DNA of 64,000 nucleotides from a virus (taxonomy: Duplodnaviria; Caudoviricetes). Numbering within the stretch: the stretch's first letter is position 1; every line of letters begins with the position of its first letter. The position numbers and the translations under genes are program-made. The notes beneath the pieces are model-generated. The model was not told the DNA's origin and did not search any database. It saw only the letters and a program-made list of their open reading frames with translations. The stretch covers positions 96,001 to 160,000 of the IMG/VR virus record IMGVR_UViG_3300021431_004524, one strand, 5' to 3'. Positions 33,495-47,990 of this stretch are shown here, piece by piece.

Positions 33495-33526
33495 TTTGGT
33501 ACTTTCAAAAATTTGTAGTACTTTTG
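33495..33526 (+). promoter_or_regulatory. Bacteroidota promoter for Y RNA / Ro60 unit
   Basis: TTTG-N20-TACTTTTG. Confidence 0.8.
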
Positions 33527-33540
33527 CAACTGAAAAACTA

Positions 33541-33692
33541 AAATAGTAGTGATTTGAGAGATACTTCGATTGGAATTGTGGGTCTGTGGTTCGAGTCCAC
33601 ATCTGCCGACAAACAGTAATAACAAACGGCAGATAGCTCAGTTGGTAGAGCAACAGTTAAGAATACACTGTCAATGATTTCCTCTATTTTTT
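33541..33692 (+). ncRNA. YrlA-like Y RNA (permuted tRNA mimic), copy A
   Basis: T arm TGTGG-TTCGAGT-CCACA precedes acceptor TCTGCCG..CGGCAGA and D arm GCTC-AGTTGGTA-GAGC; ends pair (AAATAG/CTATTT); immediately upstream of TROVE gene. Confidence 0.85.
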
Positions 33693-33747
33693 AATATAAT
33701 AAGTAAAAAATTTCTTTTAATAATAACAAATTAAATAGTGATAGAAT

Positions 33748-35412
33748 ATGGCAAAGTTTAATTCAAAGAAAGAGGCTGTAAAGCCAACAGTGATTAACGA
33801 GATGGGTGAGAAGGCTTTTGAACTTACAGCAAAGGAAAATCTCGTACAGAGTGTGTTAACCACATTCCTTCAGGGACAGTACTATGAAAGTGAGTCAGAG
33901 GAAATGAAGAAAATCCTCGATTGTGTTGAGAAGGTTGACCCATTGTTCGTGGCAAAACTTGCATTATATGCACGTAATGAGGGTAATATGAGGTCATCAA
34001 GCCATCTGCTTGGTGCAGCATTGGCAAAGCATATTGCCGGTCAGGAATATGCCGCACGTTTCTATAACAAACTCATTGTACGTCCGGATGATATGTCTGA
34101 GGTGCTTTCATGCTATGGTTCATTGAACGGTATGAATCTTACCGATAAGTCACTTCGTAAGATTCCAAACTCTATCAAGAAGGGATTCAAGGCTGCACTT
34201 GAGCGTCTCGATGCTTATCAGATTGACAAATATAAGATGAATAGCCGTCAGGTGAAACTCATTGACCTTGTTAACCTGTTGCACCCAACACCAACACAGA
34301 AGAATAAGGAGGCATATAAGCGTCTTATCAACGGTGAGTCTCTTGCTGACCTTTATGAGAGCAAGGTGTTGGAGAAGGAAATGTCAAAGGGTGGCCAGAC
34401 AGCCAAGACTGAGGAAGAGAAGACTGCCGCCAAGGAGGAAGCAATCTCTTCTGTTCTTGACAATGTTAAGGGTATGCCAATTTTCAACTTGCTTCGCAAC
34501 TTGCGTAACATTATCCTCTATGCGCCAAACCGTATCGACGATGCTATTACACAGTTGACTACAAGGGAGAAGATTGTCAATTCAAGACTGCTTCCATTCC
34601 GTTTTGCAACTGCATACAATGAAATTGAGAATATGAGTTATGAGGCAAAGAAGCCTTCATCTTCAATCGCTTTGGAAAGCGAAATCAGTAAGATGAAACT
34701 CACTCAGAACGAGTTCGCTACTATTAAGGCAAAGGTTCTTAAGGCTCTTGAAGATGCACTTGAGTATGCTTGTGAGAATATTCCTGAGTTGGAAGGAGGA
34801 ACCTACATCCTTTGCGATGACAGTGGTTCAATGAGAGGTGATATGGGTGGTCATTCACGTGTATCTGCATTCTCAAAGACGACATCATCTACAATTGGTC
34901 ACTTGTTTGCCGCAATGGTCGGTTGGAAACAGAAGGATATTTATATCGGTCTGTTCGGTGATAGGCTCATTCCAGTGGAAGTTGACCGTTCTAAGAGGAT
35001 GCTCGATTTCTGTAACTACATGGACAGTAAGGGTGGCTCATGTGGCGGTGGTACAGAGGCCGGTATTTATGACTTCCTTCGTCAGTGCATTAAGGAGAAG
35101 AAGAAGGTGGATAACGTAATCGTCTTCTCTGACTGTCAGATTGGTTCCGGTGCAGAGACCGCATGGTATGGCGTGGATAGTAGTGACCGTAGTGGACGCT
35201 TCCAGGACTTGTTCAAGGAGTTCAAGAAGATTAACCCAATGTGTAACTTCATTGTGTGCAATCTTCGTTCGGCTAAGGGCAACTCAGTATTCCACAAGTC
35301 ACAGAGAATACTTAACATCGCTGGTTGGAGTGAGAAGATTTTCGACGTGATTAAGTCCAATACCGTTGGTATGGAGGCAATCATCAAGAAGATTGAAGCC
35401 ATCGAGATATAA
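33748..35412 (+). CDS. rsr: Ro60/Rsr TROVE-domain RNA-binding protein
   Basis: KLALYARNEGNMRS, LLRNLRNI, SRLLPFRF, vWA MIDAS DDSGSM, VIVFSDCQ, IAGWSEKIF. Confidence 0.92.
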   Translation: MAKFNSKKEAVKPTVINEMGEKAFELTAKENLVQSVLTTFLQGQYYESESEEMKKILDCVEKVDPLFVAKLALYARNEGNMRSSSHLLGAALAKHIAGQEYAARFYNKLIVRPDDMSEVLSCYGSLNGMNLTDKSLRKIPNSIKKGFKAALERLDAYQIDKYKMNSRQVKLIDLVNLLHPTPTQKNKEAYKRLINGESLADLYESKVLEKEMSKGGQTAKTEEEKTAAKEEAISSVLDNVKGMPIFNLLRNLRNIILYAPNRIDDAITQLTTREKIVNSRLLPFRFATAYNEIENMSYEAKKPSSSIALESEISKMKLTQNEFATIKAKVLKALEDALEYACENIPELEGGTYILCDDSGSMRGDMGGHSRVSAFSKTTSSTIGHLFAAMVGWKQKDIYIGLFGDRLIPVEVDRSKRMLDFCNYMDSKGGSCGGGTEAGIYDFLRQCIKEKKKVDNVIVFSDCQIGSGAETAWYGVDSSDRSGRFQDLFKEFKKINPMCNFIVCNLRSAKGNSVFHKSQRILNIAGWSEKIFDVIKSNTVGMEAIIKKIEAIEI

Positions 35413-38016: not shown

Positions 38017-38172
38017 TCAGGTGTAGCTCAGAGGCAGAGCAACGGACTGTATACAGAGTAAACTGTAAAATCAAACTCAGCAATTAAAAATGGAAACATT
38101 AATGATTTCCCGGTTCGACTCCGGGTTGTTGGGCTAATCCGTAGGTCGAGATTTCGAAATTCTCCACCTGAG
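38017..38172 (+). tRNA. tRNA-Asn(GTT) with 84-nt insert (38051-38134)
   Basis: TCAGGTG/CACCTGA acceptor, G73, short variable loop; removing insert gives CT-GTT-AA. Confidence 0.75.
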
Positions 38173-38180
38173 CATATATA

Positions 38181-38467
38181 GAACAAGTACAGACCACTGA
38201 GTAGGAACTGGGGGAAGTGATAGGTAAATGCTAGATTCATATTTATCACGCAGACGGACTCAAAGTAGTACCGACAGACCAGTGAAAGGTGTTGGTTAGG
38301 TTAATTCCTAAAACGTGAAGAGCAGCGGATTCTGTGAAGAGCCATATGACACGGAACACAACAAACGTCGTAAAACAGCGCAAGTGCCTAATAGCGGGTT
38401 ACCTGATTAAATCTGAATAAGATGATAAAAGGTTGCAAAAGTCTGTACCTCGTCAATTTACTTGTTC
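38181..38467 (+). ncRNA. unidentified multi-helix ncRNA candidate
   Basis: GAACAAGTA/TACTTGTTC and GTACAGAC/GTCTGTAC closing helices, several internal hairpins, no plus-strand ORF. Confidence 0.5.
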
Positions 38468-38638
38468 TTTTAATTTTAAAAATAGTTAAATTTCTTAACT
38501 ATCATTTTTTGTTTTAAAAACTCCGAGGGAAGGAAATGGTTGGACTTACGGCAAATGCTAGGAACCTGATGAACCGTAAGACAAAGGTATGTTGTAGGAG
38601 TTGCAGGTGAAACGGACAACAGTGTAGGAGTTTTTTCT

Positions 38639-38711
38639 GGGGGAGAAGCTAACTTAGTAGAAGCGCTGGACTGAAAATCCAGAGGAGGTGGAGCGTAACC
38701 ACCCTCCCCCA
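38639..38711 (+). tRNA. tRNA-Phe(GAA)
   Basis: cloverleaf, CTGGA-CTGAAAA-TCCAG; atypical T loop AGCGTAA. Confidence 0.85.
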
Positions 38712-38720
38712 CTTTTTATT

Positions 38721-38888
38721 GGGAGGTTATTCCGTAAGTGGTAGCGGGGCTGACTGTATACAGAGTAAACTGAAAATCAAACTTCGTATTGGTCGAGTGG
38801 CTAAAACTTGCATACGTTGGTTCGAATCCAACATACGAAGCAAATCAGCTGCTTAACGGCTCGGGTGGTTCGACTCCATCACCTCCCA
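38721..38888 (+). tRNA. tRNA-Tyr(GTA) with 84-nt insert (38758-38841)
   Basis: GGGAGGT/ACCTCCC, long variable arm, A73. Confidence 0.8.
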
Positions 38889-39160
38889 CATCTAAATTCA
38901 GAACCTATGTTTTGCTGTGTCAGAGTAAATAAACAGTAGGTGGGATATGGTATGTCACCTTGAGAGAGGAAACAGAGAGAAAACGGCGAAATAGACGGTA
39001 GGCAAGTTCGTTCTTCGTTAATATCAGAATAAACCATTAATACTAGTTAAGGGTAATGAGGTTTTGTAGGTAAGGAAACCGCCACACTAAGTTTGGAAAC
39101 AATAAATAAGAACTAAGTGAAATGGTAAGTTGGTTTATGGATTTCCAACGTAAATTTTAT

Positions 39161-39235
39161 GGGCTGCTCATATAATGGTTATTATGCCGGCTTTGCAAGC
39201 CGGTCATCTGGTTTCGACTACCAGGCGGTCCACCA
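39161..39235 (+). tRNA. tRNA-Ala(TGC)
   Basis: loop TTTGCAA, G3-U70, encoded CCA. Confidence 0.9.
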
Positions 39236-39240
39236 TCAAT

Positions 39241-39314
39241 AGATGCTTAGTTCAGTTGATTAGAATATCGGTCTCCAAAACCGAGGGTCGGAGGTTTGAG
39301 TCCTTCAGCATCTG
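39241..39314 (+). tRNA. tRNA-Trp(CCA)
   Basis: TCGGT-CTCCAAA-ACCGA, G73. Confidence 0.9.
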
Positions 39315-39324
39315 CATTTTATAT

Positions 39325-39396
39325 GGCGCATTCGTCTATCGGCCAGGACACAAGATTTTCATTCTTGGAAGAGCAGTTCGATTCTGCTATGCGCTA
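39325..39396 (+). tRNA. tRNA-Glu(TTC)
   Basis: CAAGA-TTTTCAT-TCTTG. Confidence 0.88.
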
Positions 39397-39412
39397 CTAT
39401 TAGTTTATCAAA

Positions 39413-39485
39413 CGGGATATGGTGTTTAATGGTAGCATCCTTGGTTTGGGACCAAGTGGAGTGGTTTCGAGTACCGCTATCCCGA
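39413..39485 (+). tRNA. tRNA-Pro(TGG)
   Basis: CTTGG-TTTGGGA-CCAAG, CGG start. Confidence 0.9.
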
Positions 39486-39493
39486 CAAATGAT

Positions 39494-39565
39494 GGCCGGT
39501 TCGTCTATCGGTTAGGACACAAGATTTTCATTCTTGGAAGAGGGGTTCGATTCCCCTACCGGCTA
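39494..39565 (+). tRNA. tRNA-Glu(TTC), second copy
   Basis: same anticodon arm as 39325, different acceptor/T stems. Confidence 0.9.
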
Positions 39566-39576
39566 CTTTTATTTTC

Positions 39577-39648
39577 GCCTCCTTGGGTGAGTGGTTGAGC
39601 CACCGGTCTGCAAAACCGGGCACCCCTGTTCGAATCAGGGAGGAGGCT
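39577..39648 (+). tRNA. tRNA-Cys(GCA)
   Basis: CCGGT-CTGCAAA-ACCGG, U73. Confidence 0.9.
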
Positions 39649-39663
39649 CATATATAATTAATT

Positions 39664-39815
39664 GCCCTGTTAGCTCAATTGGTAGAGCAGCGCACTTGTA
39701 TAATGGAGTAAACCATTAATAAAAATCAAGACTATATAGATAGGTATTATAATAAGGTTCGAATCCTTTATATAGTCCAATGCGCAGGTTGTTGGTTCGA
39801 TTCCGACACAGGGCT
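39664..39815 (+). tRNA. tRNA-Thr(TGT) with 79-nt insert (39700-39778)
   Basis: GCCCTGT/ACAGGGC, U73, GCGCA/TGCGC anticodon stem. Confidence 0.8.
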
Positions 39816-39888
39816 CAAAAATAAAAAAGTTCAAATACTTGAAATATTTGAAAAATCCTTTATATTTATAATAAAGTGTAGTTCGAAT

Positions 39889-40482
39889 ATGAAGGTAAAT
39901 TGGATTAACGAAAAAGAAACTATTGAGAAACTTATAAAAGAAGGAGTATCATATGAACGTATTGGTAGGCAGTATGATGTTACAGGTGCCGCAGTTAAAA
40001 AGGCAGCAAAAAAATTAGGTATCGAACTTAAATATAGAAGGGAAATAAATCCCAACGAACATTTCAATAAAGGAGTTAAACAAATACATATTTGTTTAAA
40101 TTGTGGTAAAGAATTTGAACATAGTAGAAACACAAAAAATAAATTTTGTTCACACACTTGTCAACAGACATATCGACGTAAACAATATATAGAACGATGG
40201 AAAAATGGCGAAGAAAATGGATTAAGTGGTGAATATAATTTATCAAAAGTAATTAAACGTTATCTAATGGAAAAACATAATTACGAATGTGAGAAATGTG
40301 GATGGGGTGAAAAAAATATTTACACAAATACAATACCATTGGAAATACATCATATAGACGGTGATTATACTAACAATAAAGAAGAGAATCTACAGGTTTT
40401 ATGCCCTAACTGTCATTCTCTTACTGAAACACATAAATCACACAATAAAAAGGGCAGAAAGGGAAGAAAAAAATATAATTAA
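39889..40482 (+). CDS. free-standing HNH endonuclease (HTH + Zn finger + HNH)
   Basis: CLNC/FCSHTC, CEKC, LEIHHIDGDYTNNKEENLQVLCPNCHS. Confidence 0.9.
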   Translation: MKVNWINEKETIEKLIKEGVSYERIGRQYDVTGAAVKKAAKKLGIELKYRREINPNEHFNKGVKQIHICLNCGKEFEHSRNTKNKFCSHTCQQTYRRKQYIERWKNGEENGLSGEYNLSKVIKRYLMEKHNYECEKCGWGEKNIYTNTIPLEIHHIDGDYTNNKEENLQVLCPNCHSLTETHKSHNKKGRKGRKKYN

Positions 40483-40491
40483 TAGATAGTC

Positions 40492-40576
40492 GGCTTCATG
40501 GTGGAATTGGTAGACACGTCAGGTTTAAGCCCTGATGGGCATTGTGCCTGTTCGGGTTCGAGTCCCGATGAAGCCA
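40492..40576 (+). tRNA. tRNA-Leu(TAA)
   Basis: TCAGG-TTTAAGC-CCTGA, long variable arm. Confidence 0.9.
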
Positions 40577-40608
40577 CTGAATAATGGGTGTTTAACTCAG
40601 TGATAACT

Positions 40609-40682
40609 GTTGGCATAATTCAGTAGGTTAGAATGTCACGCTGATACCGTGAATGTGGGTGGTTCGAGTCCATCTGCCAACA
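40609..40682 (+). tRNA. tRNA-Ile(GAT)
   Basis: TCACG-CTGATAC-CGTGA. Confidence 0.85.
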
Positions 40683-40690
40683 CTTTTTAT

Positions 40691-40765
40691 AGTGCGTTAG
40701 TTCAGTAGGTTTAGAATGCCACACTGTCACTGTGGAGGTCGCCGGTTCGAATCCGGTACGCACTG
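40691..40765 (+). tRNA. tRNA-Asp(GTC)
   Basis: CCACA-CTGTCAC-TGTGG, G73. Confidence 0.9.
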
Positions 40766-40797
40766 CTTAACTATCTGATTATCAGTCAGTTATGTTT

Positions 40798-40951
40798 GAC
40801 TCCGTAGCTCAGTGGTAGAGCACCTGACTTTTTTAACGGAGAGAACCGTCTTAAACACATTTCCATGTTTAAAAGTGGTGAAACAGATGAAAGTCCGACT
40901 CTTTCACATGGAACAATCAGGGAGTCATGGGTTCAAGTCCCATCGGAGTCA
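40798..40951 (+). tRNA. tRNA-Lys(TTT) with 82-nt insert (40833-40914)
   Basis: GACTCCG/CGGAGTC, CCTGA/TCAGG anticodon stem. Confidence 0.8.
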
Positions 40952-40963
40952 CAAAGTTAATAT

Positions 40964-41039
40964 GGGACAGTTGGCCGAGAGGTTAGGCGCAGGATTGTGG
41001 TTCCTGTTTACGTTGGTTCGAACCCAACACTGCCCCCCA
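40964..41039 (+). tRNA. tRNA-His(GTG)
   Basis: CAGGA-TTGTGGT-TCCTG, G-1:C73, encoded CCA. Confidence 0.9.
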
Positions 41040-41044
41040 TAATT

Positions 41045-41117
41045 GCACCATTGGTGTTAGCGATTAGCATATCAGACTTCCAATCTGAAGGGGACAGTTT
41101 GAATCTGTTATGGTGCT
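41045..41117 (+). tRNA. tRNA-Gly(TCC)
   Basis: TCAGA-CTTCCAA-TCTGA, U73. Confidence 0.9.
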
Positions 41118-41124
41118 CTAATTT

Positions 41125-41196
41125 GCAGTATTCGTATAGTGGTTATTACACCTGCTTGCCATGCAGGAGACGAAGTTTCGATTACTTTATACTGCT
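41125..41196 (+). tRNA. tRNA-Gly(GCC)
   Basis: CCTGC-TTGCCAT-GCAGG, U73. Confidence 0.9.
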
Positions 41197-41204
41197 CTAA
41201 TTAA

Positions 41205-41685
41205 TAGAAATTGACGATATAAGTTGAAATTAATTCAGCAATGTTGATGCAATGAAGATTATCATTGAAATCTGAGTTTATGCAGCGGTGGCCAGGTAAT
41301 TGCATCAGTAGTGGGTCAAACGACACTATGGTCAAATTGTTGGATTTACTTGCAGGGATTTCGACTTTTTTATGGAGAGTAAGGTGGCGCACTCCGCCGG
41401 AATAAAACGTCACGCTTATAAGTTGGAATTTTTAAATGCCTATTAGGACACCGAAAGGGTCGGGAGTAGATTTCATCCAAAAATTCGTATGAGGATTTCG
41501 AAAGGGTATTTAATCTTCGAAGGATTTCAACTTTTTTGATATGGTTTTATTCTGACTTCGAGTAATGGCAATTCGGCAGAAAGCATTTGTAGGTTGTTAG
41601 ATGCTATAGAGTGATAATGGTTGGAGTCCATAATGTCGTTTTGTGTTATCTACTGCTTGGAGAACTCTAATTAAAACTATTTTTG
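41205..41685 (+). ncRNA. unidentified large structured ncRNA candidate
   Basis: long-range helix AAGTTGAAAT/ATTTCAACTT, TGATGCAAT/ATTGCATCA; no plus-strand ORF; between tRNAs. Confidence 0.45.
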
Positions 41686-41700
41686 CTTTATTATATAAAT

Positions 41701-42226
41701 GGAGACATAAGCCTAATTGGTAAGGCAGTGGTCTTGAATTTAATTCGAGTGCTATGGCGAGAAATCCCATAGTAGAATCTCCCTAAAACGGTGGAATTCC
41801 TTAAATAATAAGATACACTTATCTTACTACTTGTCAAATATTTAAGTGTATAATACTCGAAATTGAAATTAGAGGTGACTCCGAACCACAACGTTTAGTA
41901 ATTCCATAAAAATTAGACAAGGGAATTAATGTGGATTAACGTACTTATTATTTCAGAGACAGTTTATGCTTTAACTATAGTTCAAATACTGCATGAACAT
42001 TAAGAGAACACTACACTAACCAATAATGTGTAAGGATAATACCGTTCGAAAATAACTTATATCGGGTGGGTAAACTCTCTACAGAAGTGATGGTAATAAG
42101 GGGAGAGGATAAGTTATGAACGTGTAGAGACTGAACGGGAGATACCTAAGTTGAAATTAAAGGCATCACAATAGTGCGTGTCAGGCTTGCAAGCATTTCA
42201 ATATGGTAATAATAAACTGTCTTCCA
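41701..42226 (+). pseudogene. tRNA (Ser-like) pseudogene with truncated group I intron
   Basis: tRNA 5' half to U34, P1 with U-G, P (AAAACGGTGGAA), Q (AATACCG), R (GTAGAGACTGAACGGG); S element and most of tRNA 3' half not found; acceptor 3' strand TGTCTTC remains. Confidence 0.7.
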
Positions 42227-42230
42227 TTAA

Positions 42231-42320
42231 GGAGGGGTAACCGGTGTGGTATACCGGCGCGGTCTTGAAAACCGTTGGTTCGTGTAACAAGCGAATGGGA
42301 ATCGTGCTCTCACCCCTCCG
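42231..42320 (+). tRNA. tRNA-Ser(TGA)
   Basis: GCGGT-CTTGAAA-ACCGT, long variable arm, G73. Confidence 0.85.
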
Positions 42321-42382
42321 CGTTTTTTTTTTTGTAAAACATCAACAAGAAGAGAAAAATTCTTAATAATGGTTGGACTAAA

Positions 42383-42469
42383 GGAGAGTGAACCTGTCGG
42401 GGATAGGGGCTGTCTGCTAAACAGTTCGTCCGGAGTATTTTGGATGTGGGTCGGGACCACCGCTCTCCG
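42383..42469 (+). tRNA. tRNA-Ser(GCT)
   Basis: GCTGT-CTGCTAA-ACAGT, long variable arm, G73. Confidence 0.85.
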
Positions 42470-42480
42470 CAGAGTTATAT

Positions 42481-42602
42481 GGGCATATGGTGTAATGGAC
42501 TAACACGGCGCAAGCAAGGCGACTCTCACGCTCAGTGGCTTGAGCAACCACAAAAAAGAGAGTGTTGAAGTACAGATTTCGGTTTGAATCCGGATGTGTC
42601 CT
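42481..42602 (+). ncRNA. tRNA-like RNA with anticodon arm replaced by a nested structure
   Basis: acceptor GGGCATA/TGTGTCC, D and T arms present; central ACTCTC-[GCTCAGTGGCTTGAGC]-GAGAGT. Confidence 0.6.
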
Positions 42603-42636
42603 CTAAGTTTAACATTAAAGAAGAAAGGATAGAATT

Positions 42637-43308
42637 ATGGATTCAAGTTGGAAATACCCAAGAACGTTTCACGTCCCGTTCTCAGAAGGGTTACAGAATG
42701 ATGACAGACGTGTTGATGACGATTGGTTTTCCTATTTGAAGGGAAAGGAACTTATTCTTAGCGAAAAATGCGACGGTGAGAATAATTCTATATCTCGTTA
42801 TGGTGTTTATGCTCGTTCTCATGCAGCACCTACAAGGAATCCTTGGTCAATAAACCTATGGGGAAATGACGGACTTTATTGGAGAGTTAAGGATTTGATT
42901 GGTGAAGATGAAATGATTTACGGTGAGAACTTATATGGTGTTCATTCAATTGAATATAACAGGTTGAAGGAATATTTCCATATGTTTGCCGTAAGGGATG
43001 AAGAGAAATGGTATTCTTGGGATGATGTTTCAGAAATGGCACAGATTCTTGATTTGCCGACTGTTCCTGTATTGGAAAGACGTTCATTTGACACTGAGGA
43101 TGAATTAAAGGAACGTGTATTATATTGGATGACGCAAGGCAGTAGGTATGGTGATACTATTGAGGGTGTTGTTATCCGTAATGCAGATAGTTATCCGATT
43201 GATGAGTTTTGCCATAATGTTGTGAAGTATGTACGTAAGAATCATGTTCAGACTGACCAATTTTGGGCAAAGAATTGGAGAAAAGCAAAAATAACGGAAT
43301 ATTATTAA
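42637..43308 (+). CDS. ATP-dependent RNA ligase family protein
   Basis: KYPRTFH, motif I EKCDGEN, GENL, EGVV, KYVR. Confidence 0.85.
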   Translation: MDSSWKYPRTFHVPFSEGLQNDDRRVDDDWFSYLKGKELILSEKCDGENNSISRYGVYARSHAAPTRNPWSINLWGNDGLYWRVKDLIGEDEMIYGENLYGVHSIEYNRLKEYFHMFAVRDEEKWYSWDDVSEMAQILDLPTVPVLERRSFDTEDELKERVLYWMTQGSRYGDTIEGVVIRNADSYPIDEFCHNVVKYVRKNHVQTDQFWAKNWRKAKITEYY

Positions 43309-43327
43309 CAACTTTTAATGAAAAATA

Positions 43328-43359
43328 TTTGTGTATTTCAATGATTATTTGTACTTTTG
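43328..43359 (+). promoter_or_regulatory. Bacteroidota promoter for tnpB
   Basis: TTTG-N20-TACTTTTG. Confidence 0.75.
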
Positions 43360-43383
43360 CACTCAGTTAATGAAAAAAAAATT

Positions 43384-44589
43384 ATGAAAAGAGGTTATAA
43401 GTATCGTATTTATCCAACAGAAGAGCAGAAGAATTATTTTAAGGTATGTTTTGCAGCAAACAGATGGTTTTGGAATTATGCTTTAGATAAAATCAATGCA
43501 CAATATGAAAAAGATAAAACACATTTGTCAGCACAATATAAGATTGCACGTGATTTACCATCCTTAAAAAAAGAGGAAAGTACATGTTGGATTGGGCACT
43601 GTGATGCAATGTCTTTTATTTACACGGCGCAAGCACTTGATGCATCTTTTAAGAAGTTTTTCAAGAAAGAAGGTGGGTTTCCAAAATATAAGTCGGCTAA
43701 ATATGATAATTCTTATACAATACAAATACAAGAAAAAGGTAAAACAATCATTGATTGGGATAAATCAATGATAAGAATAGGTAAAGCCGGCGATGTAAGT
43801 ATTGTTTTGCATAGGAAATTTAATGGGGTTATTAAATCGGTAACAGTTTCCAAGAAGAGTTTTGACTATTACGAAGTTTCACTTCTTGTTGATGATAATT
43901 TCGTCAAGCCGTCCGAAAAACGTATAACTACGTATGATGGTACTGTTGGAATCGACCTTGGGGTAAAATCCGATTCAAATGTAATTTTAACTGATGGCAC
44001 TAAATTTCCTGCAATTGAAGTAGGACGTGAAACTAAACGTATTGCAAGACTTAGACGTAGACTTTCCAAGAAGGAATGGAAAAAAACCGGTGAGAAAAGA
44101 TTTTCCAAAAAATATGGTAAGGAAGTTGATGTAAAAGTTCCCTCCAAGAATTACATAAAGTTAAAGAATCGTATTGCGAAACTTGAAGATGAAATTGTCA
44201 GAAAACGTACTTATAATACGCATATGATTACATCTTATGTCGCTAAGAATCCAAACGTCAATACGGTCTGCATTGAAGATTTGAATGTTAAGGGAATGGC
44301 TAAGAACCATCATATTGCAAAGTCCGTAAGTAATGCGAATATGGGTGAGGTTAAAAGGCAACTTGAATATAAATGTGATTGGAATGGAAAGAATCTGGTT
44401 ACTGTTGACAGATTTTATGCAAGTTCACAAATCTGTTCGTGTTGTGGGTTTAAAAACGAAAAGGTGAAGAATTTGTCGGTAAGACAATGGGTCTGTCCGA
44501 ATTGCGGGGTACATCATGATAGGGATGTGAATGCCGCACTTAATATTAAAAATGAAGGATATAGAATTATAACTGAAGGAAAACAGTGA
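43384..44589 (+). CDS. tnpB: TnpB-family RNA-guided nuclease (candidate CRISPR-associated)
   Basis: YKYRIYPTEEQ N-terminus, RuvC GIDLG / IEDL / DRDVNAALNI intact, CSCC-CPNC Zn finger; no transposase adjacent. Confidence 0.92.
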   Translation: MKRGYKYRIYPTEEQKNYFKVCFAANRWFWNYALDKINAQYEKDKTHLSAQYKIARDLPSLKKEESTCWIGHCDAMSFIYTAQALDASFKKFFKKEGGFPKYKSAKYDNSYTIQIQEKGKTIIDWDKSMIRIGKAGDVSIVLHRKFNGVIKSVTVSKKSFDYYEVSLLVDDNFVKPSEKRITTYDGTVGIDLGVKSDSNVILTDGTKFPAIEVGRETKRIARLRRRLSKKEWKKTGEKRFSKKYGKEVDVKVPSKNYIKLKNRIAKLEDEIVRKRTYNTHMITSYVAKNPNVNTVCIEDLNVKGMAKNHHIAKSVSNANMGEVKRQLEYKCDWNGKNLVTVDRFYASSQICSCCGFKNEKVKNLSVRQWVCPNCGVHHDRDVNAALNIKNEGYRIITEGKQ

Positions 44590-44597
44590 ATAAAAAA

Positions 44598-44760
44598 CCC
44601 TACCCAGGTGTATCGGGGATGTTAAGTCTGTGGATTACCCTCTAATGGATGAACGTGATTTATCACCTAAAAAGTTATGGTAAGTTGAATCAGAAAAACG
44701 GTTTACAACAAGTAAACGACCACCTAAGAAGCGATTTTTAGGTAACATTTTTAAAAGTAA
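44598..44760 (+). ncRNA. omegaRNA/reRNA-like scaffold (possible tracrRNA)
   Basis: AAGTCTGTGGA...TTGAATCAGAAA core typical of tnpB 3' regions, hairpins CGGTTTAC/GTAAACG and ACCTAAGAA/TTTTTAGGT. Confidence 0.65.
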
Positions 44761-44791
44761 TGTGGCGTAATCAATGCTTTATTGGAAATAT

Positions 44792-45197
44792 GGTGTATGC
44801 TGTATTAAAATGTTAGGTAAATACAACTGGAGTTGGTTGCATCCATTAGCGACAAAGCGGTGTATGTCATATTAAAATGTTAGGCGAATACAACAGGACT
44901 TCAAACCTACCCTCGAAAAGAACGGGTGTATGCCTCATTAAAATGTTAGGTGAATACAACCAGTAGTTAAGAGCCTCTTAAAGCAATGGGGTGTATACCA
45001 CATAAAATGCTAGGTAAATACAACTCAGACAGTCGAATGTTTCTTTGTCCTTTGGTGTATACTACATTAAAATGCTAGGTAAATACAACTTATTTCCTCT
45101 TGTTTCTTCGCTATTGAGGATGTATGTCACATTAAAATGCTAGGTGAATACAACGACCCGCTATCAAGGTCTTCCAATTGTTTGGTGTATGTTACAT
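44792..45197. CRISPR. CRISPR array, 6 full + 1 partial 36-nt repeats, six 29-31 nt spacers
   Basis: consensus GGTGTATRYNNYATTAAAATGYTAGGYRAATACAAC at 44792, 44859, 44925, 44990 (35 nt), 45054, 45119, 45184 (partial); unique spacers. Confidence 0.92.
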
Positions 45198-45211
45198 GAG
45201 ATTTGTATTAC

Positions 45212-45282
45212 TGGACCATGGTGTAATGGTAGCACCACAGATTTTGGTTCTGTCAGTTTCGGTTCGAATCCGGATGGTCCAA
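45212..45282 (+). tRNA. tRNA-Gln(TTG)
   Basis: ACAGA-TTTTGGT-TCTGT. Confidence 0.9.
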
Positions 45283-45288
45283 CTATTT

Positions 45289-45360
45289 TGGAGATTGGTG
45301 TAATTGGCAACACGTGACACTCTGGATGTCAAATTATCAGTCCGAGTCTGGTATCTCCAA
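45289..45360 (+). tRNA. tRNA-Gln(CTG)
   Basis: TGACA-CTCTGGA-TGTCA. Confidence 0.88.
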
Positions 45361-45367
45361 CTAATTT

Positions 45368-45412
45368 GGCTTCATGCCGATACTCGTCCGGGTTCGAGTC
45401 CCGGTGAAGCCA
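45368..45412 (+). pseudogene. tRNA-Leu-derived minihelix (acceptor + T arm only)
   Basis: GGCTTCA/TGAAGCC-A identical to tRNA-Leu 40492; D and anticodon arms absent. Confidence 0.7.
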
Positions 45413-45484
45413 CTAAACAAATAGTCATTTAGTATTGAAAAACTGTTAAACTATATTTATATTAATATTAAATTTAATTAAAAG

Positions 45485-45784
45485 ATGGATGATATACTTG
45501 ACAGATATTTAGATGAAACACTTCTTACTGAGGAAGAGAGACAGAAAGTACAGCAACTTGCCGGTGATTATAATAGATTAGATATGGATTTATTTATAAG
45601 CAGAATTGGGGGTGCTGAAAAGATTGAAGAAATGAGGCGTATCAATGACAAGGCTGATAGAATGTATGTTGTCGATGGCGTAGTACATCATAAATCTGAC
45701 AAAACAAATGAAGATATTGAGGAATGGAAGAAAGGTTTTATGGAAGGATTTGAAGAAGCATACAAAAGATTAAACATGAAATAA
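45485..45784 (+). CDS. hypothetical protein
   Basis: 99 aa ORF. Confidence 0.55.
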   Translation: MDDILDRYLDETLLTEEERQKVQQLAGDYNRLDMDLFISRIGGAEKIEEMRRINDKADRMYVVDGVVHHKSDKTNEDIEEWKKGFMEGFEEAYKRLNMK

Positions 45785-45806
45785 AAGATATATTTATCTA
45801 TAATAT

Positions 45807-46206
45807 GGGGATAACAGGAATTTGACAGCAAGTATGAAATGGTCTGTAAGCATGCAGTGTGAAGACTATTACACCTAAATCAATTGGTCGAACAATTAAT
45901 TGGCGAAACAACTTACGCTCTCGCTGCCTAATCGAAGTACAGTAGGTTACTGGCTTAATTCCCTTACAAGGTGAGGGAACGAGACATCACTTAATGAGTT
46001 ATTTTCTGAGACTTGTTAGTATAGTGGTGCAGGGAAATCAGAAATAGTCGGTCTATGCCTTGATGGATTGATGAAATTTAAAAGGATAAGAATGCAATTT
46101 GGTAGTCCAAGTCGTGTTGCATTATGAAAATCAAAATTGAACTAAGCATGTAGAAAGCATATTGTTTCCTTGTTTGGACGAGGTTTCGATTACCTCTATC
46201 TCCACA
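45807..46206 (+). ncRNA. ssrA: tmRNA
   Basis: GGGGATA/TATCTCC-A acceptor with G3-U, T arm, tag ORF 45902-45931 GETTYALAA*. Confidence 0.95.
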
Positions 46207-46215
46207 AATTAGGAT

Positions 46216-46301
46216 GCCGTTGTACCCGAACTGGTATAGGGGACAGTCTAAGGAACTGTTGCGACGGAAGTTGCGTGAGGGTTCGACTCCCTCCAACGGC
46301 A
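46216..46301 (+). tRNA. tRNA-Leu(AAG)
   Basis: ACAGT-CTAAGGA-ACTGT, long variable arm, A73. Confidence 0.85.
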
Positions 46302-46311
46302 CAAACATGAT

Positions 46312-46463
46312 GGTTCCGTAGCTCAGTTGGATAGAGCAACTGCCTCTACAGAGTAGTTCACTGTGACGAACTTCATTACATGGTATTTAGAATACTTAAC
46401 GGAGCGAAACCGTGTGTAATGGCTCTAAGCAGTAGGTCATGCGTTCGAGCCGCATCGGAATCA
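46312..46463 (+). tRNA. tRNA-Arg(TCT) with 78-nt insert (46346-46423)
   Basis: GGTTCCG/CGGAATC, D loop AGTTGGATA (A20), ACTGC/GCAGT; anticodon depends on insert boundaries. Confidence 0.7.
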
Positions 46464-47189: not shown

Positions 47190-47259
47190 TTTGGTAGTTT
47201 CAGAAATATGTAGTATCTTTGCACTGTCAAACGATGACAAAGAGTTCTTTAATATATTT
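47190..47259 (+). promoter_or_regulatory. Bacteroidota promoter plus hairpin and boxA-like element for Y-RNA array
   Basis: TTTG-N20-TATCTTTG, TGTCA-aacga-TGACA, AGAGTTCTTTAATATATT. Confidence 0.7.
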
Positions 47260-47282
47260 ATAATGTAGAAAACAAAAAAATT

Positions 47283-47375
47283 ACGAATAGTGATGTGAGA
47301 GTTACTTCGATAAAATAGTGTGGATATTTTCAATCAAAACTCACTCTCGCTGTTTTTCTTTCGTTTTTTTTTTTT
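47283..47375 (+). ncRNA. Y-like RNA copy B (module only, no tRNA body)
   Basis: ACGAA-TAGTGA-TGTGAGAG-TTACTTCGAT ... CTCTCGC-TGTTTTTCT-TTCGT-polyT. Confidence 0.7.
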
Positions 47376-47383
47376 AAGATATA

Positions 47384-47535
47384 AGTTGGTAGTGAAGTTA
47401 AGGGTTACTTCGATTAATTATTGGTTCGAATCCAATAGATTCCGTTTGGGAATTTTGGCGAAAAGGTTAAACGCGAAACACTTGAAATGTTTTTTAGACA
47501 GAAACTCACCCTTGCTGTGATTCTCCAATTTTTTT
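47384..47535 (+). ncRNA. Y-like RNA copy C carrying permuted tRNA-Ser(TGA)-like body
   Basis: module encloses T arm, loop-closed acceptor, D arm, then AAACA-CTTGAAA-TGTTT. Confidence 0.75.
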
Positions 47536-47539
47536 ATAC

Positions 47540-47677
47540 GGGCGTAAAGTTTAGAAAAAGAAATTTACTGAAGGTATTTTCTTTGATTTTTCAATAGTGA
47601 ACTTTACAGTTACTTCGAATGGTTAAAACGTTATCCTGTCAAGATAAAGATTCTGGGTTCGACTCCCAGTACGCCCG
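47540..47677 (+). ncRNA. tRNA-Asp(GTC) with Y-like module (copy D) inserted in its D loop
   Basis: GGGCGTA/TACGCCC-G, TTATC-CTGTCAA-GATAA; module halves in swapped order, capped by TTGA-tttt-TCAA. Confidence 0.75.
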
Positions 47678-47682
47678 CAAAC

Positions 47683-47823
47683 AACAAGTAGTGACAGAAG
47701 AGTTACTTCGATTTTTTAGCTAAGTTGGTTATAGCACAAAACAGTTAATTTTGGTGACCGGGGTTCGAGTCCCCGAAGAATCTATTTTGTAATACTCTTC
47801 TAATTTTCTCTTGTTTTTCTTTT
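47683..47823 (+). ncRNA. Y-like RNA copy E enclosing tRNA-Asn(GTT)-like body (47710-47783)
   Basis: AACAAG/CTTGTT and AGAAGAG/CTCTTCT helices flank a full cloverleaf with loop CAGTTAA. Confidence 0.75.
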
Positions 47824-47849
47824 GAAAGTAGTATGTATTTATAAGAAAT

Positions 47850-47990
47850 ATGCAGTAGTGACGTGACTGTTACTTCGATAACATTTAGACAAGTGGTTAA
47901 GTCGCAATTTTTGGGTAATTGAGAACGCCGGTCCAATTCCGGCAATGTTGTAAACAATAGCAAACAGTCACAAATTTTCTCTGTATTTTT
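47850..47990 (+). ncRNA. Y-like RNA copy F enclosing tRNA-Pro(TGG)-like body (47879-47951)
   Basis: ATGCAG/CTGTAT and GTGACTG/CAGTCAC helices flank cloverleaf with CAATT-TTTGGGT-AATTG. Confidence 0.75.

What the first reader, a model, noticed from the sequence alone, without database searches (positions are those of the whole stretch)
47283..47990. Array of Y-like RNAs: one conserved module grafted onto tRNA bodies in several topologies
Seen: the module [outer stem]-TAGTGA-[7-9 nt inner stem]-(T/A)TACTTCGA ... [inner stem complement]-pyrimidine tract ending CT-[outer stem complement]-polyT occurs six times (33541, 47283, 47384, 47540, 47683, 47850). Both stems change sequence yet keep pairing (GTGAGAG/CTCTCGC, AGAAGAG/CTCTTCT, GTGACTG/CAGTCAC; ACGAA/TTCGT, AGTTGG/CCAATT, AACAAG/CTTGTT, ATGCAG/CTGTAT). 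The cargo differs: tRNA opened at the anticodon loop (A), none (B), opened at the variable loop (C), module inside a D loop (D), whole Asn- and Pro-like cloverleaves attached by the acceptor end (E, F). Established: YrlA Y RNAs join a Ro60-binding stem to a tRNA mimic lacking the anticodon loop and lie near rsr. Inference: a modular Ro60 tethering toolkit presenting different faces of tRNA, including intact anticodon loops, as baits or adaptors for tRNA-targeting defence nucleases, synthetases or modification enzymes. I know of no description of this multi-topology array.
Basis: partly seen in the sequence, partly recalled or inferred. Interest (0 to 1): 0.9.

Follow-up and report, generated by a model that had tools for sequence, protein, structure and literature searches.

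The report
Phage Y-RNA handle carrying tRNA bodies
A giant phage that encodes the RNA-binding protein Ro60 also carries six small RNA genes sharing one conserved two-helix "handle", attached to nothing, to rearranged tRNA bodies or to whole tRNAs; this is probably a new branch of the known Ro60 partner RNAs (Y RNAs), and here the anticodon loop seems to matter.

Summary
The motif TAGTGA-N8-9-(T/A)TACTTCGA occurs six times in the window and in the whole 235-kb phage record, against none expected by chance. It is the 5' half of a two-helix handle. Both helices covary across 15 relatives (12 of 12 pairs, 0 of 500 shuffles).

A model built mostly from other phages recovers five of the six units end to end, across cargo of 33-98 nt.

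The handle tracks Ro60:
- It sits just upstream of TROVE genes only about 32% identical to this one.
- 15 of 22 TROVE-centred loci have hits, all on the gene's strand.
- Chance motif matches elsewhere almost never fold as a handle.

New here:
- Handles are nearly invariant between two sister phages, while cargo diverges with compensatory stem changes.
- Anticodons switch between close relatives.
- Free tRNAs in the same phage duplicate the handle-borne anticodons.

Rfam YrlA scores below threshold, and its GNCGAA motif is not met.

The bait/adaptor idea remains inference.

This scan noted similar Ro60 plus handle RNA families with different handles in other phages. I found no published description.

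The parts
33495..33526 (+). Bacteroidota-type promoter-like site (TTTG, 20 nt, TAnnTTTG) upstream of unit A and Ro60
   Evidence: Read from the sequence. The consensus is from my own knowledge of Bacteroides promoters. It is conserved in relatives (alignment A1).
33541..33694 (+). Unit A: handle plus a YrlA-type cargo (T arm, closed 7-bp acceptor with an 18-nt loop, D arm), 55 nt upstream of Ro60. The inner stem has one G.G mismatch.
   Evidence: Motif; Rfam YrlA 34.5 bits, below the 69-bit threshold; R1 45.1 bits, E 1e-6; parse.
33748..35412 (+). Ro60-like gene, 554 aa (TROVE plus Ro60-type vWA)
   Evidence: Pfam TROVE E 4.6e-16; vWA_Ro60 21.4 bits, below its cut-off. PDB hits are to Thermus phage phiLo Ro60, 9KOP/9L5Y, E 8e-11.
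47190..47221 (+). Bacteroidota-type promoter-like site upstream of the array
   Evidence: Read from the sequence. The same layout occurs in L060 and L034.
47282..47376 (+). Unit B: handle closed by a 33-nt loop with no tRNA features, followed by a T12 run
   Evidence: R1 69.1 bits, but this unit is one of the 15 seed sequences.
47384..47535 (+). Unit C: handle plus a circularly permuted tRNA (T arm, 7-bp acceptor closed by GTTTG, D arm, anticodon arm with loop CTTGAAA). The handle takes the place of the variable arm.
   Evidence: ARAGORN finds a tRNA only in the rotated cargo. R1 45.4 bits, E 9e-7. The same design occurs in L031, L144 and L146.
47540..47677 (+). Unit D: tRNA body with an Asp GTC anticodon, whose D loop holds a permuted handle. 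Inner-stem partner 47567-47574, Y-tract 47575-47582, capped outer stem 47583-47594, TAGTGA 47595-47600, inner stem 47601-47609, TTACTTCGA 47610-47618.
   Evidence: Sequence; partial tRNA hit 47619-47670, 31.5 bits; MFE of the insert gives the capped outer stem and the inner stem; compensatory T-stem change against L060; R1 hits the 5' part only, 22.4 bits. Seen only in the window and L060.
47683..47820 (+). Unit E: handle enclosing a whole tRNA-Asn (GTT) cloverleaf, 47710-47783. G1-A2 of the tRNA are the GA of TTACTTCGA. Position 33 is A here.
   Evidence: ARAGORN; Rfam tRNA 56.1 bits; R1 49.6 bits, E 1e-7; three compensatory stem changes against L060.
47850..47990 (+). Unit F: handle enclosing a whole tRNA-Pro (TGG) cloverleaf, 47878-47952. 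The T loop reads TCCAATT (C at position 55). The L060 orthologue has anticodon TTG.
   Evidence: ARAGORN; Rfam tRNA 48.5 bits; R1 43.2 bits, E 3e-6; alignment A4.

Best explanation
The six units are genes for a phage lineage of Y RNAs, the small RNAs that partner Ro60.

Each has the same handle: an outer helix (4-6 bp), a conserved asymmetric internal loop (UAGUGA opposite a U-rich strand ending CU), an inner helix (7-9 bp) and a conserved junction strand UUACUUCGA. By analogy with Ro60-Y RNA complexes, the phage's own Ro60 (33748-35412) most likely binds this handle (inferred, about 0.8).

The cargo sits where Y RNAs carry their effector-binding module. It is absent in B, or a tRNA body joined to the handle at a different point:
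- YrlA-like without a clear anticodon arm (A);
- at the variable-arm position with a closed acceptor (C);
- through the D loop (D);
- through the acceptor end (E, F).

C, D, E and F all display an intact 7-nt anticodon loop, which classical YrlA lacks. The anticodon is also the part that changes fastest between sister phages.

I therefore think the RNAs tether Ro60 to proteins that read tRNA anticodon loops, or present Ro60-protected tRNA look-alikes to them. They would form part of the phage's translation-protection region (about 27 tRNAs, tmRNA, RNA ligase). I think this is more likely than simply adding decoding capacity (inferred, about 0.55).

Shown: the handle structure, its linkage to TROVE genes, the cargo folds, and the pattern of constraint. 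Not shown: binding, RNA ends, processing, and partners.
For: Motif:
- Six copies against none expected, and the only copies in the record.

Handle structure:
- Both helices covary: 12 of 12 pairs have double changes, 92% of cells are paired, and 0 of 500 shuffles reach this; slid controls give 28-50%.
- Model R1 was built mostly from other phages. It recovers A, C, E and F full length at E 1e-6 to 1e-7, with nothing else in 64 kb below E about 1.

Linkage to Ro60:
- Unit A lies 55 nt upstream of the gene.
- Handles lie 60-350 nt upstream of Ro60 genes that are about 32% identical, in L011, L033, L039, L046, L056, L083 and L092.
- 15 of 22 TROVE-centred loci have hits, and all 28 hits are on the gene's strand.
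- TROVE is on the same contig for about 25 handle-bearing records.
- Of 100 bacterial loci with a chance 5' motif, only L227, L200, L261 (all from TROVE genomes) and L171 fold as a handle.

Relation to YrlA:
- The T-acceptor-D cores hit Rfam YrlA at 33-45 bits.

Pattern of constraint:
- Between the window and L060, the handle has 2 differences in 255 columns and the cargo 33 in 383 (Fisher 4e-6).
- Compensatory changes occur in E and D.

Anticodon switching:
- F is TGG in the window and TTG in L060.
- L026 and L086 differ by only 2 nt in 130, both in the anticodon; L067 has a third anticodon.
- L144b and L031b differ at 5 of 7 anticodon-loop positions, with identical stems.

Redundancy for decoding:
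- Free tRNAs with the same anticodons exist in the same phage.
- Window E has A33 and window F has C55, both at universally conserved tRNA positions.
- Units A and C have closed acceptor stems, so they cannot be charged as transcribed.
Against:
- Rfam YrlA is below its gathering score everywhere, and no Y-RNA family hits B-F at E up to 10.
- The strict GNCGAAN0-1G motif is absent, and the CGA is not invariant in distant relatives, which read UACUUCU or UACUUCA. Homology of the handle to known Ro60-binding sites is therefore unproven.
- One 32.8-kb contig with terminal repeats carries a handle but no TROVE gene (L047).
- E and F score as good tRNAs, have 7-bp acceptor stems with single-stranded flanks, and carry anticodons for A/T-ending codons typical of phage tRNA sets. 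RNase P/Z could release working tRNAs from them.
- The closest relatives (L118-L121) have no handle next to Ro60 itself.
Confidence: 0.6

Rival explanations
1. The units are tRNA precursors and permuted or interrupted tRNA genes. The handle is a processing and stability scaffold, with or without Ro60 as chaperone. RNase P/Z removes it (E, F), or it is cut out or tolerated (C, D), and the products are decoding tRNAs for the phage's A/T-rich codons.
For: - E and F are near-normal tRNAs (56 and 48 bits). The acceptor stem starts at the GA of the motif and has unpaired flanks, like a pre-tRNA.
- Cargo anticodons (Asn GTT, Pro TGG, Gln TTG, Lys TTT, Arg TCT, Ile GAT, Ser TGA) are the kind phages usually carry.
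- Permuted cargo has 7-bp acceptor stems, the feature that made M. smegmatis YrlA an RNase P substrate with CCA addition (PMC4201824).
- An RNA ligase gene (42637-43308) and intron-bearing tRNAs lie in the same region.
Against: - Many handles carry no tRNA at all, and these sit directly upstream of Ro60 genes.
- The handle is kept intact, even permuted, inside D.
- Handle-borne anticodons are already supplied by free tRNAs in the same phage.
- Window E has A33 and window F has C55.
- The L026 family has two mismatches in its acceptor stem (read from the sequence).
- The handle does not form a bulge-helix-bulge motif.
Confidence: 0.25
2. The handle binds a partner other than Ro60, either a host protein or another phage protein. 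It co-occurs with TROVE only because both travel with large tRNA-rich phage genomes.
For: - Array B-F lies 12 kb from the Ro60 gene, inside the tRNA region.
- L047 has a handle without TROVE.
- The handle lacks the published Ro60-binding consensus.
Against: - Handles are immediately adjacent to, and on the same strand as, highly diverged TROVE genes in many unrelated contigs.
- The handle is the single best hit in a 3.4-Mb genome, next to its TROVE gene.
- Large phage contigs with only chance motif matches lacked both a handle and TROVE (L004, L049, L024).
Confidence: 0.1
3. The repeats are transcription terminators or attenuators, or a small mobile insertion element scattered through tRNA genes, with no RNP function.
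For: - Stem plus T-run after A, B, C, E and F.
- The element occurs at varied positions relative to tRNA bodies.
Against: - The T-run is absent in distant relatives and in D.
- The loops are conserved at the sequence level.
- Handles are near-identical between sister phages while stems covary across distant ones.
- There are no target duplications or transposase linkage.
Confidence: 0.04

Closest known systems
YrlA, the tRNA-like Y RNA of bacteria and phages (Rfam RF02553; Chen et al. 2014, PMC4201824; Wang et al. 2018, 10.1101/312249)
   Same: It is encoded with, and on the same strand as, a Ro60 orthologue. It is modular: a protein-binding stem formed by the two ends plus a tRNA-like effector module. 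Units A and C and several relatives have the YrlA order T arm, closed acceptor, D arm, and hit the YrlA model weakly (33-45 bits). Several Y RNAs per genome is also usual.
   Different: The handle is a different sequence and shape: two helices with UAGUGA and UUACUUC(GA), not GNCGAAN0-1G in a terminal stem. All hits are below the Rfam threshold. Most cargo keeps a complete anticodon arm, which YrlA lacks. Some cargo is a whole tRNA or a tRNA with the handle in its D loop. The main array lies 12 kb from Ro60, in the tRNA region.
Deinococcus radiodurans Yrn1 (Chen et al. 2014, PMC4201824)
   Same: The tRNA-like part is in normal order (D arm, anticodon-like arm, T arm), with the Ro60-binding stem in place of the acceptor end, as in units E and F and L079.
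   Different: Yrn1 has a 6-nt 'anticodon' loop and an incomplete D arm, and it keeps both strands of the metazoan-type Ro60 site. E and F are full cloverleaves with 7-bp acceptor stems and 7-nt anticodon loops.
Thermus phage phiLo Ro60 with Yrl1 and Yrl2 (PMC12135203; PDB 9KOP, 9L5Y)
   Same: A phage-encoded Ro60, the closest solved relative of the window protein (E 8e-11), binds phage-encoded Y-like RNAs found next to its gene.
   Different: The phiLo RNAs are stem-bulge-stem RNAs with a CGAA motif. No tRNA cargo, array or alternative topologies are reported.
Mycobacterium smegmatis YrlA processing (PMC4201824)
   Same: A 7-bp acceptor stem in a Y RNA is cut by RNase P and receives CCA while still bound to Rsr. 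The permuted cargo here also has 7-bp acceptor stems.
   Different: No anticodon arm was reported there. Processing is untested here.
Circularly permuted and intron-bearing tRNA genes (red alga Cyanidioschyzon, archaea; from my own knowledge)
   Same: tRNA bodies are split, rotated or interrupted at non-canonical positions, including the D loop.
   Different: Those use bulge-helix-bulge junctions and a splicing endonuclease to make decoding tRNAs. The handle here is not such a junction, also occurs without any tRNA, and tracks Ro60 genes.

Membership tests
Y RNA (Ro60 partner RNA), broad sense | Encoded near a Ro60/TROVE gene and on the same strand | tested here: met
   Unit A is 55 nt upstream of the gene. 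Array B-F is 12 kb downstream on the same strand. In relatives, handles lie 60-350 nt upstream of Ro60. All 28 model hits in TROVE-centred loci are on the gene's strand.
Y RNA (Ro60 partner RNA), broad sense | A stem formed by the 5' and 3' ends, plus a separate loop or effector module | tested here: met
   Covariation of both handle helices. Cargo is variable at the distal end. Unit D is the exception: its ends lie in the tRNA.
Y RNA (Ro60 partner RNA), broad sense | Bound by Ro60 | not testable with these tools
   No binding assay is available, and the complex tool takes proteins only.
YrlA (Rfam RF02553) | Scores at or above the Rfam gathering threshold (69 bits) | tested here: not met
   Unit A scores 34.5 bits. 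Units B-F have no hit at E up to 10. Relatives score 33-45 bits.
YrlA (Rfam RF02553) | GNCGAAN0-1G motif near the 5' end (Chen et al. 2014) | tested here: not met
   The window reads ACUUCGAU or ACUUCGAA: no G two positions before the CGA, and CGAA only in unit D. Distant relatives read UACUUCU or UACUUCA.
YrlA (Rfam RF02553) | tRNA-like domain in the order T arm, closed acceptor stem, D arm, with no anticodon loop | tested here: inconclusive
   The order is met in A and C. C and its relatives also have a complete anticodon arm. B, D, E and F do not have this layout.
tRNA (units E and F) | Cloverleaf with a 7-bp acceptor stem, 7-nt anticodon loop, and T and D loops | tested here: met
   ARAGORN; Rfam tRNA 56.1 and 48.5 bits against a 29-bit threshold; compensatory stem changes against L060.
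tRNA (units E and F) | Universally conserved U33 and U55, and maturation and charging | tested here: inconclusive
   Window E has A33 and window F has C55, whereas the L060 copies have U at both positions. No CCA is encoded. Processing and charging cannot be tested here.

The most novel reading that the evidence does not exclude
Handle-tagged tRNA bodies are Ro60-bound stand-ins for specific tRNAs. Their anticodons are retuned, over short evolutionary times, to whichever host anticodon nuclease or other anticodon-reading enzyme the phage meets. The RNP would decoy such enzymes, or couple the cut RNAs to repair or decay. This would give the long-unexplained tRNA-like domain of bacterial Y RNAs a concrete, anticodon-specific function.
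Probability: 0.2. Interest if true: 0.9.

Novelty: new variant of a known kind. Interest (0 to 1): 0.68.

Why it matters
Ro60 and Y RNAs are conserved from bacteria to humans. What the tRNA-like half of bacterial Y RNAs is for remains open.

This phage lineage offers a natural series: one fixed handle with tRNA bodies attached at five different points. Most of them keep a complete anticodon loop, and the anticodon changes between near-identical phages.

This points to the anticodon end as the working part. It also gives defined constructs for binding, pull-down and infection experiments.

It also shows that annotation pipelines will call units E and F ordinary tRNA genes and miss the rest, because Rfam's YrlA model does not reach them.

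Tried and rejected
- Rfam at permissive thresholds gave no Y_RNA or YrlA hit for B-F, only tRNA hits and noise.
- Single-sequence folding is not better than shuffles, so I did not use it as evidence.
- I tested whether the cargo tRNAs are recent copies of the phage's free tRNAs with the same anticodon. They are not: only the T loops match.
- The strict motif search in the more distant Ro60 megaphages gave no more hits than the reversed-pattern control. The covariance model then found diverged handles there.
- Aligning YrlA to L144 placed the Ro-binding part of the model differently than in the window. The apparent match of ACUUCGA to the YrlA 5' motif is therefore not reliable.
- UAGUGA could pair with UUACU, but both abut the covarying inner helix, so I set that pairing aside as sterically incompatible.
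- An AGTGA just before the Ro60 start codon looked like an autoregulatory site, but it is confined to the closest clade.
- The handle is unrelated to the anticodon-loop inserts of five other tRNAs: R1 gives no hits there.
- Two reviews (PMC10870794, PMC6047535) and Burroughs and Aravind 2016 (PMC5062991) are not held, so I could not check them.

Full report
**What is there**

The window is bases 96001-160000 of a 235,653-bp IMG/VR virus record. The region 38-48 kb holds about 27 tRNA genes, a tmRNA, an RNA ligase, a TnpB and an HNH gene. ORF 33748-35412 is a Ro60-like protein: TROVE at E 4.6e-16 plus a Ro60-type vWA domain. Its closest solved relative is Thermus phage phiLo Ro60.

The pattern TAGTGA-N(5-12)-TACTTCGA occurs six times, all on the + strand, against none in 100 shuffles. 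It occurs nowhere else in the record.

Promoter-like sites of the Bacteroidota type (TTTG, 20 nt, TAnnTTTG) precede unit A and the array. The consensus is from my own knowledge.

**The handle is a real structure**

Each motif is the 5' half of a bipartite element. In order it has an outer stem, UAGUGA, an inner stem and UUACUUCGA, then the cargo. After the cargo come the inner-stem complement, an 8-12-nt pyrimidine-rich strand ending in CU, and the outer-stem complement.

I aligned fifteen short-cargo examples, fourteen of them from other phage contigs. All 12 tested pairs have changes on both sides, and 92% of cells are paired. None of 500 shuffles reach this, and slid controls give 28-50%.

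A covariance model (R1) built from that alignment recovers A, C, E and F in the window from end to end, across cargo of 83-98 nt, at E 1e-6 to 1e-7. It finds only the 5' part of D. Nothing else in 64 kb scores below E about 1.

Single-sequence folding is not significant in this AT-rich DNA.

**Unit D**

In D the handle is circularly permuted. The pyrimidine strand and outer stem are closed by a UUUU loop just before UAGUGA, and the inner-stem partner lies upstream. The whole element sits in the D loop of an Asp-GTC tRNA body. The minimum-energy fold of the insert reproduces this layout.

This form is seen only here and in the sister phage L060.

**Link to Ro60**

- Unit A lies 55 nt upstream of the Ro60 gene.
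- In phages whose Ro60 is only about 32% identical, the same handle lies 60-350 nt upstream of the gene on the same strand: L011, L033, L039, L046, L056, L083 and L092.
- Among 22 loci fetched only because they encode a TROVE protein, 15 have R1 hits. All 28 hits are on the gene's strand. This includes 414-434-kb megaphages, where diverged handles flank the gene on both sides.
- About 25 handle-bearing records carry TROVE on the same contig.
- As a stringent control I used 100 bacterial loci that contain the 15-nt motif by chance. Only L227 (three hits), L200 and L261 (all from genomes with TROVE) and L171 gave model hits.
- In one 3.4-Mb Saprospiraceae MAG, the single significant hit lies next to the TROVE gene.

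Records with a handle but no TROVE are fragments, with one possible exception: L047, a 32.8-kb contig with terminal repeats.

**Cargo**

ARAGORN on the cargo, and on the cargo rotated, sorts the family into five classes:
- plain hairpins;
- permuted tRNAs in the order T arm, closed 7-bp acceptor, D arm, anticodon arm (window C; L031, L144, L146);
- whole tRNAs joined by the acceptor end (window E and F; L031, the L026 family, L124);
- YrlA-like cores without an anticodon arm (window A; L011, L092, L044);
- one with D arm, anticodon arm and T arm but no acceptor stem (L079).

Rfam's YrlA model hits only the T-acceptor-D cores, and only at 33-45 bits against a threshold of 69.

**Pattern of constraint**

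Against the sister phage L060 (Ro60 95% identical), the five array handles differ at 2 of 255 columns and the cargo at 33 of 383 (Fisher 4e-6).

Cargo changes include three compensatory stem changes in E and one in D, so the cloverleaves are under selection.

Anticodons switch between close relatives:
- F is TGG here and TTG in L060.
- L026 and L086 differ by two bases in 130, both in the anticodon (GAT versus TCT). L067 has TTT.
- L144b and L031b differ at five of seven anticodon-loop positions, with identical stems.

The handle-borne anticodons are also carried by free tRNAs in the same phage:
- in the window, Ser-TGA at 42231, Asp-GTC at 40691, Pro-TGG at 39413 and an intron-bearing Asn at about 38017;
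- in L031, Pro-TGG and Lys-TTT.

These cargo tRNAs are not recent copies of the free ones. Window E has A33 and window F has C55, where the L060 copies keep U.

**Reading**

The most economical reading is a new branch of Y RNAs: one Ro60-linked handle with interchangeable tRNA-type effector modules. The anticodon loop looks like the functionally important, fast-evolving part.

This extends what is published:
- YrlA has no anticodon loop (10.1101/312249).
- D. radiodurans Yrn1 has the other strand order, with a 6-nt loop (PMC4201824).
- M. smegmatis YrlA is cut by RNase P and receives CCA (PMC4201824).
- Phage phiLo Ro60 binds two simple Y-like RNAs (PMC12135203).

I found no paper describing handle-tagged whole tRNAs, a handle inside a D loop, or such an array.

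The handle does not meet the published GNCGAA motif, and its CGA is not invariant in distant relatives. Homology of the handle to known Ro60 sites is therefore unproven. The case for Ro60 binding rests on genomic linkage.

**Open points**

The decoy/adaptor idea is consistent with the redundancy, the anticodon switching and the neighbouring repair genes. It remains inference.

**Earlier notes of this scan**

Earlier notes describe Ro60 genes with families of handle-bearing tRNA-mimic RNAs in other phages, with different handles. None of them is a look-alike of this stretch.

Noticed in passing
window 38017-46463 (for example 39664-39815 and 40798-40951): Several tRNA genes carry inserts of about 80-85 nt in the anticodon loop. 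The inserts share a hairpin with an AG-starting loop, and some contain a T-arm-like hairpin. They are too short for group I introns. Model R1 finds no handle in them.
   Followed up: partly
window 33697-33747; L118-L121 and L132, just upstream of position 3001: The 5' leader of the Ro60 gene is conserved in the closest clade (TTCTTTTAATAAYAACAAATTAAA, then YAGTGA 5-8 nt before the ATG). It repeats the AGTGA of the handle. It is absent from more distant Ro60 genes, so its meaning is unclear.
   Followed up: partly
L118:2700-3000: In the sister phage (Ro60 95% identical), the slot between the promoter and Ro60 holds a different, unrelated RNA-like sequence of about 120 nt instead of unit A.
   Followed up: no
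L060:865-1075: The sister phage has an extra, more GC-rich insert of about 190 nt between units E and F. The window lacks it.
   Followed up: no
L039:10076-10330 (- strand); also L056 and L083: Between the short handle RNA and Ro60 lies a second conserved element of about 250 nt. It starts AGTTTGAGATACTTCG, like the 5' part of window unit A, and has a long structured-looking cargo.
   Followed up: no
window 42637-44589 and 45807-46207: An RNA ligase (PF09414), a TnpB-type gene and a phage tmRNA (tag GETTYALAA) sit among the tRNA genes, a few kb upstream of the array.
   Followed up: no
window 47258-47270 and 47833-47845: A shared A/T motif (TATTTATAA) lies shortly upstream of units B and F, and also in L034 and L060. 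It may be a phage-type promoter in addition to the host-type one.
   Followed up: no
L088:1440-1950 (- strand): A complete 236-kb phage with its own TROVE gene has two handle units in tandem inside its tRNA cluster. One of them has a T-arm-bearing cargo.
   Followed up: partly
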